Positions 4,250-55,463 of a stretch of 64,000 nucleotides of DNA are shown here, in pieces. The DNA comes from Camelus ferus. Lineage: Eukaryota. Both the position numbers and the translations under genes were made by a program. Numbering within the stretch: position 1 is the first letter of the stretch; every line of letters begins with the position of its first letter. The stretch lies in assembly GCF_009834535.1 (NCBI RefSeq), contig NC_045696.1, forward strand, positions 16,370,001 through 16,434,000. Reading direction: 5' to 3'. The notes beneath the pieces are model-generated. The model searched no databases. It was given only the letters and a program-made list of their open reading frames with translations, and had not been told where the DNA came from.

Positions 4250-4780
4250 AAATTTTGGAGAATGTGGACAAATGAGAATTCATATTCCACTGTTGATAAG
4301 AGTACAAATACACCACTTGAGAAAAACTTTGGTAATATCTAGTAAGGTCGAAAGGGTAGAAACTCTATGATATTACAACCAGAGAATCTTACACACATTC
4401 TTACAAGTACTCATTTAATGACATTCACAAAGTTTTAAGAATAGTATACACAGCAGTAAAAATGAATAGAATCGAGCTGTATGTATTAACATGGGTCTCA
4501 TAAATGTTAAACAAAAAAGCAAGTTATAAAAGGATATGCAATTATTATTTTACCCCAAAAATATAAAAATATGTTAAACAATGCTATAAAGTGTTCATGG
4601 TTACACAGTTGGTAAAAATATAAAATATGCACAGAATAATAAACATCAAGTTCAGGACATTTAAAATGGATCTACAACAGGAAGATATATAAAGTTTTCT
4701 CTCTTATAGTGTACATAGATGTTGGCTATACTTTATTTCTTTGTGTATCTAAAGTACTTCATATAAAATTTAAAAATCTT
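4250..4780 (+). mobile_element. Degraded L1M 3' fragment
   Basis: gagaatgtgga-like start, cattccactgttgat, acagcagtaaaaatgaa, aaaaaagcaagtta; approximate. Confidence 0.45.
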
Positions 4781-8482: not shown

Positions 8483-10207
8483 CTATAAAGAGAAAAATAC
8501 TATGATTGGTCCAATTGCATCTTAAATATTATATAAACTTACAGTTGTCAACACACACACATAGATAAAACCCAACAGGTTTTTTTAACTCCCAAGTAAG
8601 TGAAGTAAATAAATTCATTATATGAACTAAAAAGATTTTTATGCTCTATTTTCTCCTTAGCTCCTTTTCAATTTCTTAATCTAAATTTTTGATGGATTCA
8701 TTTGTTTCTATCAGTTAGTCTAGAATTTTATCAAGAAAAACAAAATGCAAAACTGCCCTCCAGTGGGCCAAATGCAAGAATAAAATACATAATTAATCCT
8801 AGAGAAAATGGAATAAGTTATTCAAGTTTTAAAAATTATTTTGTGGTACTGTATATATGATGCACTGAAAAAAACTATAAGGGGTTTCTGAGGAGCTAGA
8901 CTTATTCCAGAATATAAACAATGTAACCTTTCCTCACTTCTGCTTCTTATAAAAAGCTAGTTGCTCCTTCACTTACCCGTTTGGTGGTACTTACAATAAG
9001 CTAATCGTACATTTACTCAACTGTCTTTCCCCTATAAAATCTTTAGGTCTTAAATACAAGGACTGTGTCTTATAAGCCTGTGGATTATAAGGACTGTTTT
9101 AAATATGAGGATTGTATCTTCAGAGCTTACCACAGTGCATACATTTGTTGAATATATAAAAGATGAATCCAAATAGTTTCATTTTCTTCATTATTTTTTT
9201 TACTATCAAATGAATTCACAAACGAAAAAGATGGCCAACATGTATAAATATTATTGTGTCCCTGGAACCTAAGAGTGCATTCTACTCACAGAACTTTAAT
9301 AAATACTAACTGAATTCATTTTGGTATAGGTACTTCTGCTTGGAGAAGATAATCTGTCCAAATAACTGGTTATACACTCCCAAGATACATGTTATTCAGT
9401 AAGAAAACAGGTGGGAAAAATAACTTTCAGGTACTTATCAAGAGCCAATTTACAGGAAAAATGAATCAAATATAAGAAGACAGAATTGACAGCCACAGAA
9501 CTGATTTTTTTATTTGATTTTTTTTCACAAAGAAGTTAAGGGGGGAGGATTCTGAAGATGGCAGCAATTTTTTTTTAATTTCCCTGAATGCACACATTAA
9601 AAAAAACAAAACACTAACAACAACTAGAGAGCAAAACCAGAAATCCATGGACATTTACAATAAATCAGGTGATGTGGGATCTCCATGGAACCCAAAATAC
9701 ACACAGGTAAAGACACAGCAGTAACAGCCACAAGAGCTGTGAGTATCAGCATCTAAACAGGAGAGAGCGAAGAGGAAAACAAAGGGACATCTGACGCATT
9801 CTCCATCCTGGGCCTGGGAAACCTCAACACAGCCAGGAAGTATTGCTTGAAAGCACAACAGGCCAAGCTGAAAGGAGCAGCTCAAAGTAGGTTAGCCCAA
9901 CACAGCAGCAGTGGAGTACTGAGTCCATAGTAGCTGTAAAGGGGCTGGAACCATGTACTTGTGAGCTTTTCAAACTAAGCCAAGATCACTTCCAGGAGAG
10001 GGGAACACAATTAGCAGAAACTGGTGGGAGGGAAATCGAAGTTGAGCAGTATAGGAACACCTGGGAAAGGGACAGGGAAAGAGGAGGTCCAGATACAAGT
10101 GGAGTAAGGGACAGGCAGGAACCGAGAAAGCAAGAGGCTCTACTTTTTAATACAAGTCAGAAACAGCAGAAGGAGTTCTGGAAAGTTAGAAAAGCGTCTA
10201 TCCGGCA

Positions 10208-26792: not shown

Positions 26793-28452
26793 GTGACTGG
26801 GAGGGTAGCTGGACTAACTTGGCCTCTTGGGACTCGGATTCTGGATTTGTTCTCGGGGTCTGGGATGTCCATTAACTCTGTCCTTCAGGAAGGGAGGGCA
26901 GCCTTTTGTCCGGGGCACTTTCGCGGCCTGGCCCCTGGTCATTGCTGACCGCGGCGTTTTTAGGCCTTGAAGTTTTGCGGCGGACTCAGTAGACAGCCGT
27001 GGTAATGCCGCTCTGAGGGCAAACGAGGTGGCGCGGGAGGCGGCGAGGCCGGCGTTTCTTGGACCCGCGCGGCCGGGCTAGGGCAGCCCAAGGTCATGCC
27101 CACGGGGCAGGTGTGCAGCCAGGCCTGCCAAACAGGGGCTCGCGGGAGATTGTTCTGAACTTAAGGCAGAAAGAGGGGAAAGGGTAATAGTAATCTTAAA
27201 AGTTTGCATCCCAGCCAATCTCACTTGCCCTGCACAATCACACCCCTCGGAAGCCCTAACGAACGGGACCCTAGCTGGGGTAGAGTGGCTGACTGCTTGA
27301 ATTGGGAGAGAGGCCAGATTGCGCATGCGAACACAACACGGCTTCCAAAACGGAAAAAGAGCGGGGGCATAGTTAGGTGCATTTTGGATTGACTTCAGGA
27401 TTATGTGTAGAAGAGGCAGCGAAAGGACTAACCTTTGGTCAGTCATCACCGTAAGCAGGATGCATACTCTCACTCACCACCAGGCCTCTGCGCATGCCGT
27501 GCCGTTTTGTTGCTTTCCCCTGTTTTTCTGTATCAAATTTCTTGTCATAGGCTGGCGCGGCCTCCCAGAGTAATGGAATAGGGAACTTAATCACGGTTGG
27601 TATTTTATATCTAATGGTGTAATAACAAGTGTCTTACTGATTAGATATTTAATCAGTGGGGGAAATAATGGAAGGGAATAAAGGAAAAGGAACAAGTTTT
27701 GATAGGTTATGCATTCATTTTTTTAGGTAAGTTAAATTTTAGGTCCCTGTAAAGACTTATGAAAGGATGAGAGATGTTGAAGGTATAGGTTTGAAGTTCA
27801 GGAAAAAGACCAAAAGTCGAGGTGTGATTTGGGAATCATCTAATACTTAGAAAACAAGAAGATGGATTGTACTCATGTTGCAGTAGGAATAACATGGTCT
27901 TTGCCATCATCTAGACTTAGAGTAAATTAACTGTGGAAATATGGGTAGTTAATAACCTTTCTTAAACATTGCTTTATTATCTGTAAAGGAGGGATAACAC
28001 CTTCCTGTGTTTCTTAACAATATTGCCATAAGGGTACAGGAGAGAATATGTATGGAAGTACTTTACAGAATACCTAGAGCTGAGCAAATGTTAGGTGATC
28101 TTATTGCTGAGTGTTAAATGTGTCTTTAAGTTGCCAAAAGGGAAAATATACATTGAGTTGAACAATTTCAAAAATATATTTGTGTCCAGTCGGATTTCTA
28201 TTGTGTTAACTGGGAACAAGTACTAACCTCCAAGCCTCAGTTTCTGTATATGTAAAATGGGAATGATTAAGTAGCATCTTAAGGTCTTTAGTTTTTTGCT
28301 TGGAGTCTTTCTCAAGTATTTTTCTCTGATGGGGTGTAAGAGTGATGTATGATGAGTTCTTTAATTTCTTCAGATACTTTGCTTTCATCCTGGCAGGGGA
28401 AGGATATTTTGTTGATTGTAGGATTTCTTTTGGTGGTTTTTATGTGCCATTT

Positions 28453-51936: not shown

Positions 51937-52036
51937 CTACTTGCATTCGTTTCCCACGACACCTGCGGTGTCCAATGGAATTACGGGCTTCGCAGGCGTA
52001 TTCGCCACTGTCCAGTTTTGAAACAGTATTAAATTG
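51937..52036 (-). CDS. JAM2: JAM2 exon 6 (Ig C2 domain, second half)
   Basis: QFNTVSKLDSGEYACEARNSIGHRRCRGKRMQV; aaatag / gtaagc; 100 nt. Confidence 0.96.
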
Positions 52037-53275
52037 CTATTTGGGGAAGAAAAATAAGTATGTTTTTAAGCAATACATCTATCAATAGACTCCTAAAAGA
52101 ACCGTTTTCCTTAAATTTAGCATTGTTAGTCTTTTTTTTTTTAATGACTTAGGACTTTATTATACCTTTGCTGAGAATTTAAAAACCTGCCACTCCTCCA
52201 AGGAGTAATTAGCTAGGCCACCTGTCTAATTTGACAGAGAAAGACTTAAACAGATATGGGTAAGTGTCTTTTTGTGTGTGTGATACTGAGAAAGCAGTAC
52301 GTTAGGAAGGCAGTAGGCATTTTTTAAAGTTTACAGCACATGGTAGTGTTCAGTATTCTAGGTATTTCTAATTCCTAGGAAACACCATTTATAAATGAAG
52401 GCCTTGCTGGCCTTAAAGGACAGTTTTCTAAGTCACAAGTAAGTTTATGGCAGCAGTAAACAACGAACACTTCCTCTAAAGACAGTAGTTTAGGGCCTAG
52501 GAAAGCCTTAATCAATGCTGTTTACTGGATTATAAATTCCATCAGCTGTTGAATTTTTGAAAATTCTGAGAAGATCAAGTGTAACCCTTGCTCAATCTAT
52601 TCCCTGCCAAAGCAGCTGAAAGGTAAGACTTTGATACAATAAGCTTCATAATTGTTACTAGCAGTGTTAGCATCTTGGAAAATTTCTGGAAGGAAGGAAA
52701 GAAGGGTGGGTAGAAGGGATGGATGGATAGATGGATGGAAGGCCAGAAGTTAGTTAGTTAGGAGGGAGGAAATGCAGTGTGTCCTGGCCACTTTAAAGGA
52801 TCCTGCCAGGACCAGCACAGAGGGTGAGAATCATCCTTCCAGCACCCTCCAGTCACACCCTCAAAACCGCAGTGGTCACCACTGTCTGCATCCTTGAGAG
52901 GCCATGATCCTCTAAGGAGCACATCCTCACTGTCTGGTACCCACACACGAGGTATGTTCCTGAAAACAGCCTTCTCCTCTTCTCCTTACCCACTACTGAC
53001 ACCCCTCTTCCTCCTGTGTACCTCAGCATGGTGCAGCAGAAAGCTTCTCCTTGTGTATTCTCACCACATGGAATCAATCCTCAAAGCCAGACTTCTTTAC
53101 AAACCATTCACCATGAACTCAGAGCCAAGGTTATGTATAAACCACAAGCTAGACTCAAACGGGAAATGATCTCCCAGCACATAACTGGTGATTAAAAGGG
53201 AGCCACTGTCATCCACACACTGAGTCTTTGGCAAGTTTCTCAGAAAATAACCCATCCTGGTTATTTTGGGATATT

Positions 53276-53344
53276 TTGGGAGCCGAGTTTGGGATTCCCC
53301 AACAAACGGATGCCATCCTTAAACCACGTGTATTCAGGAGCTGG
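53276..53344 (-). repeat. Perfect 69-bp direct copy of part of JAM2 exon 5 (54582-54650) within intron 5
   Basis: 69/69 identity by direct comparison. Confidence 0.95.
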
Positions 53345-54536
53345 TGCCCTGGTGCCTCCCTTTGACATCACAGATATTTCAAGGGTTGAGGTTGACTGAG
53401 GAAAGTGAATCTATTTCATCTCAGACCTGCCTTGGGGCTTTTTAGCACCTGGTCTGAGAAAAACTAAATTTGAAAAGTAAATATAGCCAAGTGTGACTGC
53501 AGGTTTTCTGCCCAATTTCTCGATGTAAAAATCACTCGGAGCTGCTGACTGAGCCTGCTGACTGGGCAGGGCCAGGGCAGGGCCTCCTTCCTTAAGGAGT
53601 AGCCGAGATGCTGATTTTTTAAGTCACTTTATCAATACACTTGATTAGTTACCAGGGGATCTAGTTTCTAAATATCATTGTGCACTTGGAGACTGAAGGA
53701 ATGAAAGGAAACATTAGACCATCCTTATAAAATTCATTAAAATTTTTATTACCATGCCTTTAAGATTCTTTGATTATAGTGATGCTAGTGAGTCTGCATC
53801 GCTGGAAGTCAGACATGTTTAAATTGACATATTATTTTGAATGAAAAAAAAAGCCTCAAATTTTTTTTTTAAAACATAGAAAGGTTCAAATTTAATGATC
53901 TTTTTTGTAAACTCCTCATCTCTACCCTAAAAAGTCAGGGACAAAACAGTAAAAATACTCTTATTTGTAAATGTCATTAACTTTAAAGAGTTTATTTCTA
54001 GATTTCCAGTAGGATTCCTTAGAAAGGCTTTTCAGTCATCAGACAATCTGCCTAAATCCAAAGCAACAGATACTCAAGTCACAGAGTCTGTTGCTGACGA
54101 ACTAGCCATGGCAGAGTTTAATGACACAGACATCCTATCATAGGTTAGCAACAGTCACTATTCTCACGTGGCTGGCACTGAGGTCAGCGTGTCCCTAAGA
54201 GAGTGTTCGTGAACTTCCCTGATATTATAAAAATGAACGCGCTTAGTACCTTCCCTGGCCTGATCCATCACCATGAATCCATGCCAGCCTGTTTCAGGTC
54301 CCTGGCACAGGCCTCGGTGTGCCCGGCTCCCTAGGTCTCTGTCTTGTCTTCCCATCTCCTGGGGCAGCTTTTCCCATCACTTCTCTGTGCGAGCGCCGTT
54401 ATCTTTCCTGCTACCCCCTCCTTTCTCTACTTAACAAGCAATGGTATCAGCCTTCTGTTCTCCATCACTGCAGTTCTAATAATTTCTTTTTCCAAATGCA
54501 AGACAGTTATTAGGTCAATGCTTGAAATGACCTTAC

Positions 54537-54739
54537 CAGAGTTCCAGATTTTGTGTTCACTGTATATGAGCTGTTGGTGCCTTGGGAGCCGAGTTTGGGA
54601 TTCCCCAACAAACGGATGCCATCCTTAAACCACGTGTATTCAGGAGCTGGATTGCCTTCTTTGTCTTGACATCGCAGCTCTACCACAGTTCCACTCAGCG
54701 CAGAGTTGGGTACTTCACATGACGGAACTGCTGGAGCCA
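54537..54739 (-). CDS. JAM2: JAM2 exon 5 (Ig C2 domain, first half)
   Basis: (V)APAVPSCEVPNSALSGTVVELRCQDKEGNPAPEYTWFKDGIRLLGNPKLGSQGTNSSYTVNTKSGTL; ccttcag / gtaagg; 203 nt. Confidence 0.97.
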
Positions 54740-55463
54740 CTGAAGGATGGACGGCAGATGGTACTGGTTATTGACAATCTAAACACGGGTTTTAACAGCC
54801 AAGTGAAGGTGGACTTATTGGATATCTGTGATAGAGGCCTGTCTCCTTTCTTCATAGGCACACAGCTAGAGCACATTTGCTAGCCCCTCTGCAGCCAGAT
54901 GGGGTCACCCGCATGACTTCTGGCCAATGGAACGTGGGGAAAAGAGATACATGCTATTCCCCGGCCTGAGTATAATTCTCCATCACTCATTCTCCTCACC
55001 ACTCCACACCTACCAAGGAGGTGTGGTGACCCCAGAAAGCTATGTAGTAAAGACGCCAGATTTACATTAGCTTGGGTCTCTAATGATTTCGTGAAGTAGA
55101 TCAATGTAATTCCACCACTACCTATCTCTGGCCCAACTACTTAGACTTTACTTACATGAGAAAGAAACTTCTATTATGTAAGCCACTCAGGGCTGACGTG
55201 TTATAATTAGCAAACATTATATTAGCTACTACAACATCTATTCTTTGTTAGATAAACAATCTCTACTTCTCCCCTCCCCAATGGTTTTAATGTATTATTA
55301 CCAACTATATTTAAATAAGTCAATCTTGAGGATATTTTCAGGACCAGTACTCAAAACTAAAATCCTGTTCAGGCCAGCACAGAGAATAGCTGTGTTAGGG
55401 TTATTCCTGTCCCAGGGATTTGTAAACCAGACTTTACTTAAATCCAGGATGCCCCAGACATGT

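What the first reader, a model, noticed from the sequence alone, without database searches (positions are those of the whole stretch)
53244..53356. Perfect 69-bp copy of JAM2 exon 5 inside intron 5, with fold-back and micro-duplication junctions
Seen: 53276-53344 is identical (69/69) to 54582-54650, 1306 bp away in the same orientation, and encodes PAPEYTWFKDGIRLLGNPKLGSQ on the minus strand. The left junction has an inverted repeat, aaaataacc (53244-53252), 6-nt loop, ggttatttt (53259-53267), followed by a tandem tattttggga x2. The right junction has tandem ctggtgcc x2, and cctggt flanks both sides (53256-53261, 53348-53353). There is no poly(A) and no exon-exon junction. Known: snap-back synthesis, short template switches at microhomologies and local templated inserts are the footprint of Pol theta-mediated end joining or MMBIR/FoSTeS. 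Inference: a recent germline repair event copied nearby coding DNA into the intron. Zero mismatches imply young age, ongoing conversion, or an assembly artefact. The copy has no polypyrimidine tract, so it is probably not spliced, but it would carry exonic enhancers and confound read mapping.
Basis: partly seen in the sequence, partly recalled or inferred. Interest (0 to 1): 0.72.

Follow-up and report, generated by a model that had tools for sequence, protein, structure and literature searches.

The report
DNA-repair scar in camel JAM2 intron
An intron of the camel JAM2 gene carries an exact 69-base copy of part of the neighbouring exon; it is likely an ordinary, probably harmless scar of DNA break repair, and similar local copies occur about four times per million bases on this chromosome.

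Summary
Observation confirmed: 53276-53344 equals 54582-54650 (69/69, JAM2 exon 5, a two-humped camel), with a 9-bp fold-back and 10- and 8-bp tandem copies at the junctions, each seen at 0.1-0.3% of random sites. Public runs not flagged as the assembly's source hold 0.99 of the region's words (about 0.93 expected without the insert), so an artefact is unlikely. New here: the right flank resembles the exon's continuation almost in register (22 of 25 bases; about 0.1% by chance). If that similarity pre-dates the insert, the gene's sense strand primed the copy, which favours a DNA template over JAM2 RNA. Best reading: microhomeology-primed template switch closed by Pol theta-type end joining. 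The class is known, and common here: 6 comparable local copies in 1.6 Mb. The scan reported similar exon copies in other genomes. Perfect identity bounds the age only to under roughly 10-29 My. An unremarkable in-frame cryptic acceptor lies 50 bases upstream; nothing shows that it is used. No outgroup intron and no read alignment across the insert were obtained, so the empty site and polymorphism remain open.

The parts
53276..53344 (+). 69-bp exact copy of the middle of JAM2 exon 5, same orientation as the donor; keeps 3 CpGs
54582..54650 (+). Donor tract inside JAM2 exon 5
54537..54740 (-). JAM2 exon (second Ig domain, first part; 'exon 5' by recalled numbering), phase-0 donor site at 54536
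   Evidence: 68/68 aa identical to Camelus ferus model P0001; JAM-family match; splice sites
53244..53267 (.). 9-bp inverted repeat with 6-nt loop; inferred snap-back: 2-nt primer at 53259-53260 plus 7 new bases 53261-53267
   Evidence: (DNA fold -5.8 kcal/mol)
53261..53275 (+). 15-nt left filler: fold-back piece, then 53265-53272 identical to donor 54594-54601 (inferred aborted copy from the same donor), then a slip that makes the 10-bp tandem 53262-53281
53341..53356 (+). 8-bp tandem duplication at the right junction; its first 4 bases are the last 4 of the copy (4-bp microhomology with 53349-53352)
53349..53373 (+). Right flank homeologous to donor 54647-54677 (22 of 25 bases, two gaps; 11 of 12 ungapped at 53362-53373 versus 54666-54677, offset 1304 against 1306 for the copy)
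   Evidence: does not extend further
53261..53395 (-). Hypothetical cryptic reading: 44 codons plus stop behind an acceptor-like AG ending at 53396, in frame with exon 5; use not shown
51938..52036 (-). JAM2 exon 6, the other boundary of the host intron (52037-54536)

Best explanation
The 69-base exon copy and its patchwork junctions are likely the scar of one germline DNA-break repair event in a camel ancestor, in which a broken end likely copied nearby DNA and was then rejoined; it is probably neutral. Shown: the copy, the junction repeats and the flank homeology. Inferred steps: (1) a break or collapsed fork near 53260; (2) the right end's minus-strand 3' tail (53373 towards 53349), imperfectly matching 54647-54677, annealed to exon 5 on the sister chromatid or a looped template, slipped once (8-bp tandem) and copied about 65 nt towards 54582; (3) the left end folded back on itself and added 7 nt; (4) the two extended ends went through short anneal-extend-abort cycles (5 nt from donor position 54597-54601, then a slip giving the 10-bp tandem) and were joined, as Pol theta does. 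An equally simple variant has only the left end growing and copying the resected right arm 1.3 kb in; both are DNA-templated. Which polymerases acted cannot be read from sequence.
For: All 15 filler bases on the left and 4 on the right trace to the flank or to the same donor. Junction repeats are each 0.1-0.3% by chance. Flank homeology: 18 of 14,256 anchored background 30-mers score as high; 16 of 20,000 random windows give 11 of 12 in register; it lies exactly behind the copied tract for a minus-strand primer, the arrangement described for microhomeology-assisted template switching (PMC6902434, passages). Complex multi-template germline insertions number 33 and 26 in two human genomes (PMC8421209, section 10 part 1). 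Snap-back, loop-out and trans priming are the SD-MMEJ classes (PMC5728401, passages). 6 comparable local copies, 121-1349 bp from their twins, in 1.6 Mb of the same chromosome; resection range about 2 kb (PMC7615360, passages). No poly(A), no exon-exon junction. Presence in runs beyond the possible source.
Against: The empty site was not seen: no outgroup intron was found, so the insert's right boundary and the pre-existence of the homeology are inferred. The single mismatch in the 12-bp core falls on a donor CpG, as decay of a copied tract would give. A 69-nt tract from 1.3 kb away is atypical for Pol theta alone. None of the 6 background copies has junctions this ornate: 2 of 24 ends had a relaxed inverted repeat (0.75 expected), 0 of 24 a tandem. 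A donor wholly inside an exon has only a 3-6% chance under a position-blind DNA model, though the case was picked because it is exonic.
Confidence: 0.75

Rival explanations
1. The duplicated tract is longer (about 96 bp, donor 54582-54677) and its right third was scrambled during the event or is an older, decayed copy of which 69 bp were later re-homogenised by gene conversion from exon 5.
For: 22 of 25 bases match almost in register (offset 1304 versus 1306), about 0.1% by chance; the mismatch in the 12-bp core is a CpG-type transition.
Against: Five differences in the 28-nt tail against none in 69 bp is unlikely for one tract of one age (about 0.002). Similarity stops at 53373 and is absent on the left (null fractions 0.45 and 0.94). 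The 6-mer on both sides and the clean fold-back fit a fresh insertion at one point.
Confidence: 0.12
2. The left end's plus strand used JAM2's own transcript as the template (RNA-templated repair in cis), which is why the donor lies inside an exon.
For: The transcript is complementary to the strand that made the fold-back; exon-contained donor 3-6% by chance; transcript-templated repair exists in human cells (PMC12065846, passages).
Against: No exon-exon junction, intron loss or poly(A), the marks that identify an RNA template. The flank homeology points to a sense-strand primer, which cannot copy the mRNA. 6 similar copies nearby (5 inverted) show that local copying is general (their exon status was not checked).
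Confidence: 0.06
3. A 73-bp piece of exon 5 (54578-54650) was released as a small circle closed at a 3-bp microhomology and reinserted: 53276-53348 is a circular permutation of it.
For: The 4 bases after the copy equal the 4 donor bases before it, and an 8-mer at 53350-53357 also occurs at 54575-54582.
Against: The same 4 bases are explained by the target's own 8-bp tandem; the circle explains neither the fold-back nor the homeology; only 4 bases are informative.
Confidence: 0.03
4. Assembly or library artefact (chimeric fold-back read).
For: Perfect identity and a fold-back junction; no read-level alignment across the insert was obtained.
Against: 15 of 24 listed runs hold 0.99-1.00 of 126 sampled words, 5 of them (3 studies) not flagged as a possible source; a genome without the insert would hold about 0.93, and the chance that at most 1 sampled word spans a junction is 0.001 if sampling is random.
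Confidence: 0.01

Closest known systems
Complex germline MMB-TI (microhomology-mediated templated insertions; PMC8421209, section 10 part 1 and passages read)
   Same: Insertion of 25 bp or more built from several local templates in both orientations, with microhomology or microhomeology at switches; germline; no gross rearrangement.
   Different: Camel, not human; the reference (empty) allele is not in hand; the main donor is 1.3 kb away and exonic.
Pol theta TINS / SD-MMEJ (PMC7165422 and PMC5728401, passages read)
   Same: Short, AT-rich aborted tracts, snap-back inverted repeat, direct-repeat pieces, several rounds of priming.
   Different: The 69-nt tract and its distance exceed the usual Pol theta tract (rarely over 10 bp) and range.
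Microhomeology at replicative join-points (PLP1 rearrangements; PMC6902434, passages read)
   Same: Imperfect match beside a short perfect microhomology at the switch point.
   Different: There 7-14 bp with gaps of at most 2 nt; here 25 bp with a 2-nt and a 4-nt gap, and the product is an 88-bp insert, not a large copy gain.
Class 2 templated sequence insertion polymorphisms (PMC5110952, first of four parts read)
   Same: DNA patch at a break, no poly(A), no L1 hallmarks.
   Different: Those donors are distant by definition; polymorphism here is untested.
Locally templated inserts at complex human deletions (1000 Genomes phase 3; PMC4617611, passages read)
   Same: 871 (53%) of the complex sites assessed had a template within 10 kb.
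   Different: No accompanying deletion is evident here, though it cannot be excluded without the empty site.

Membership tests
Complex MMB-TI / local templated insertion | Inserted sequence matches nearby templates | tested here: met
   69 bp from 1.3 kb away; filler from flank and donor
Complex MMB-TI / local templated insertion | Two or more template switches with microhomology or microhomeology | tested here: met
   2-, 3-, 2- and 4-bp microhomologies under the reconstruction, and a 25-bp homeology; the shortest are weak singly
Complex MMB-TI / local templated insertion | An ancestral allele without the insert exists | tested here: inconclusive
   No mammalian JAM2 locus among 34 metagenome loci; the genome search holds no relatives
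Complex MMB-TI / local templated insertion | Real germline sequence, not an assembly error | tested here: met
   Word shares of 0.99 in 5 runs of 3 studies not flagged as source, against about 0.93 expected without the insert; indirect, no read alignment
Pol theta TINS (TMEJ) | Short (mostly under 10 bp) tracts from templates close to the break | tested here: inconclusive
   Met by the 7-, 5- and 4-nt pieces; not met by the 69-nt tract
Pol theta TINS (TMEJ) | Genetic dependence on POLQ | not testable with these tools
   Past germline event
Class 1 TSIP / L1-mediated retrocopy | Poly(A) tail, target-site duplication at a TTTT/A site, spliced donor | tested here: not met
   No poly(A), no exon junction, only a 6-bp shared flank; features from PMC5110952 abstract
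Class 2 TSIP | Donor from a distant region; polymorphic | tested here: not met
   Donor is 1.3 kb away; polymorphism untested
RNA-templated break repair in cis | Splice junction or intron loss written into DNA | tested here: not met
   Donor lies inside one exon and touches neither boundary, so the mark could not appear; not a disproof
Tandem exon duplication / new exon | Copy carries its own splice sites and is spliced in | tested here: inconclusive
   Neither exon boundary was copied; upstream AG has 12 of 18 pyrimidines, reached by 22.5% of 564 YAG sites; 0 of 81 fetched JAM2 proteins repeat the exon core motif

The most novel reading that the evidence does not exclude
The repair event created a camel-specific cryptic exon: exon 5 splices in frame to the acceptor at 53396 and reads 44 codons, including a repeat of 23 exon-5 codons, to a stop, giving either a poison exon or a secreted JAM2 without its membrane anchor, switched on by the exonic enhancers that the copy brought in.
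Probability: 0.04. Interest if true: 0.5.

Novelty: new member of a known kind. Interest (0 to 1): 0.17.

Why it matters
As it stands it is a clean teaching example of a known mutational class: one 88-bp scar showing fold-back, aborted copying, slippage and probable homeology-guided donor choice. It could serve as a presence/absence marker in camelids and can mis-map short reads between exon 5 and the intron. It would matter more only if the cryptic exon is used, or if a genome-wide survey showed that own-exon donors are enriched with RNA-compatible polarity.

Tried and rejected
Outgroup intron from metagenome contigs, using an exon-6 peptide alignment: 34 loci, all 46-79% matches over 14-28 residues to unrelated Ig domains, no mammalian JAM2. 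Repeat-family consensus for the empty site: the flanks gave no other match in the genome. Longer ancient exon duplicate: no similarity beyond 53373 or left of the copy. Retrocopy: no poly(A) or exon junction. The translation printed was in the wrong frame and was redone. Literature: 'JAM2' with 'camel' gave 2 unrelated papers; camel structural-variant search gave 5 listings, none opened; 'templated insertion / pseudoexon / partial exon duplication' gave 2 unrelated listings. These three searches found no description of this locus; supplements of camel variant papers were not examined and could list it. PMC12337305 gives no absolute mutation rate, so the rates used are assumed.

Full report
Setting. 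The window is C1:16,370,001-16,434,000 of a 2.09-Gb genome. JAM2 runs on the minus strand; tblastn of stored homologues places exons at about 58617-58459, 57070-56912, 54740-54537, 52036-51938 and 48317-48207. The 54740-54537 exon is 68/68 identical to the Camelus ferus model P0001, and exon 6 has the residue of P0001 where the dromedary model P0003 differs, so the window is from a two-humped camel lineage (inference). The exon is a JAM-family Ig segment (best solved match JAM-A, E 1e-13). 'Exon 5' follows recalled human numbering.

Observation. Confirmed in full. The 69-bp direct repeat is exact and maximal, unique in the window apart from microsatellites and found at only these 2 places in the genome. 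The fold-back and both tandem copies are as stated and each occurs at 0.1-0.3% of 20,000 random background points (post hoc thresholds).

Is it real? Of 24 listed runs, 20 (10 studies) hold at least half of the 126 sampled words of 52700-53900; 15 hold 0.99-1.00, of which 10 are flagged as a possible source and 5 (X11-X15, 3 studies) are not. 77 of 1171 words are specific to the insert's junctions, so a genome without it would hold about 0.93, and the chance that at most one sampled word is a junction word is 0.001 under random sampling (the same word sample serves all runs, so this is one test). A second organism label (X3) also holds 0.99 but is flagged as a possible source. The list shows best holders only and cannot speak to polymorphism. 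No read alignment across the insert was obtained.

Anatomy. Under the simplest empty site (left flank to 53260, right flank from 53349) the insert is 88 bp: 7 nt that complete a hairpin with 53244-53252; 5 nt that, with the three preceding bases, equal donor 54594-54601; 3 nt from a slip that makes the 10-bp tandem; the 69-bp tract; and 4 nt that make the 8-bp tandem. Every base has a local source, but pieces of 3-5 nt are weak singly.

The right flank 53349-53373 aligns to donor 54647-54677 at 22 of 25 bases with two gaps, including 11 of 12 ungapped, two bases off the register of the copy. 18 of 14,256 background 30-mers that start with the same 4-mer score as high, and 16 of 20,000 random windows give 11 of 12 within 5 bases of register. 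The similarity ends there and has no left-hand counterpart. Read on the minus strand, it lies directly behind the start of the copied tract, where a primer would anneal. If ancestral, it explains why this donor was chosen and makes the sense strand the primer, which needs an antisense (DNA) template. If not ancestral, it is the scrambled or decayed tail of a longer copy; its one core mismatch at a donor CpG fits that, while five differences in 28 nt against none in 69 (about 0.002) argue against one tract of one age. Only an outgroup decides; my search for one found none.

Mechanism. I favour a DNA-templated switch primed at microhomeology and closed by iterative Pol theta-type joining (0.75). 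Sources: PMC8421209 (section 10 part 1 and passages; complex multi-template germline events, 33 and 26 in two people), PMC6902434 (passages; microhomeology at about 32% of join-points), PMC5728401 (passages; snap-back, loop-out, trans), PMC7165422 (passages; direct and inverse templated insertions, tracts rarely over 10 bp, distal templates under 0.1%), PMC7615360 (passages; resection about 2 kb, TMEJ in meiotic repair), PMC4617611 (passages), PMC5110952 (first of four parts), PMC12065846 (passages). The long tract argues against Pol theta acting alone; no enzyme can be named from sequence.

Age. With assumed rates of 1.5-2.5e-9 per site per year, with or without a tenfold CpG rate, zero differences give a 95% upper bound of 10-29 My and medians of 2-7 My. 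The copy keeps 3 CpGs (observed/expected 0.64 against 0.11 and 0.30 in the two intron halves). Old and New World camels split about 16.3 Ma (PMC12337305, passage), so the insert probably post-dates that split, but need not be recent within the species.

How unusual? In 160 evenly spaced 10-kb stretches of the same chromosome (1.6 Mb), 21 self-matches of at least 30 bp and 85% were found; 12 were dropped as interspersed or tandem repeats and 9 remained. I set aside 3 more by eye (L018 resembles a MIR core, a recalled label; L141 is low-complexity; L090 is cut by the stretch end). The 6 left are 31-125 bp, 88-100% identical, 121-1349 bp apart, 1 direct and 5 inverted (L147 may also be MIR-like). 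That is about 4 per Mb, some 8,000 genome-wide if the chromosome is typical; 2 of the 6 are at least 50 bp and 95%, about an 8% chance per 64-kb window. None is perfect over 60 bp, and none has junctions as ornate: 2 of 24 ends had a relaxed inverted repeat (0.75 expected) and 0 of 24 a tandem. So the class is common and this is an unusually well-preserved member. Earlier unchecked scan notes describe similar exon copies in shark, octopus and camelid introns; none lies near this place.

Function. Neither splice site of exon 5 was copied. An AG ending at 53396 is in frame with exon 5's phase-0 donor and opens 44 codons to a stop at 53261-53263, but its pyrimidine tract (12 of 18) is matched by 22.5% of 564 comparable intronic sites, a one-in-three frame match is expected, and the nearest donor-like sites are weak (6-7 of 9 consensus positions). 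None of 81 fetched JAM2 proteins repeats the exon core motif (67 have it once, 14 not at all). Neutral is the likely state.

Verdict. Real, well described, and a new member of a known kind. Interest 0.17.

Noticed in passing
window 54741-54767 (minus strand): The dromedary model P0003 extends exon 5 upstream by about eight residues, implying a second, in-frame acceptor roughly 24 nt upstream of the main one; the window encodes the same residues. May be a prediction artefact.
   Followed up: partly
L152:847-968 and 1241-1362 (G000:C1:50,500,001 stretch): 122-bp inverted local copy, 97% identical, 272 bp apart, outside detected repeats; the largest young local duplicate in the background sample.
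   Followed up: no
L058:3853-3905 and 4611-4663; L083:357-481 and 1715-1837; L147:8122-8152 and 9502-9532; L068:3315-3352 and 4350-4387; L074:735-771 and 893-929: Further local dispersed copies (53 bp direct 98%; 125 bp inverted 88%; 31 bp inverted 100%; 38 bp inverted 95%; 37 bp inverted 89%), all within 1.35 kb of their twin, which suggests a distance limit near the resection length.
   Followed up: partly
L090:9860-10000: Near-tandem duplication of at least 47 bp with what looks like a small inverted repeat between the copies; cut by the end of the stretch.
   Followed up: no
window 53844-53870: A run of 9 A and a run of 10 T face each other across a short spacer in the same intron.
   Followed up: no
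window 26963-27160 (minus strand): The last 66 residues of the Camelus ferus JAM2 model P0001 map here, 21 kb beyond JAM2 exon 7 in the G+C-rich 26-28 kb island, so that model is probably a mis-joined prediction running into the neighbouring promoter region.
   Followed up: partly
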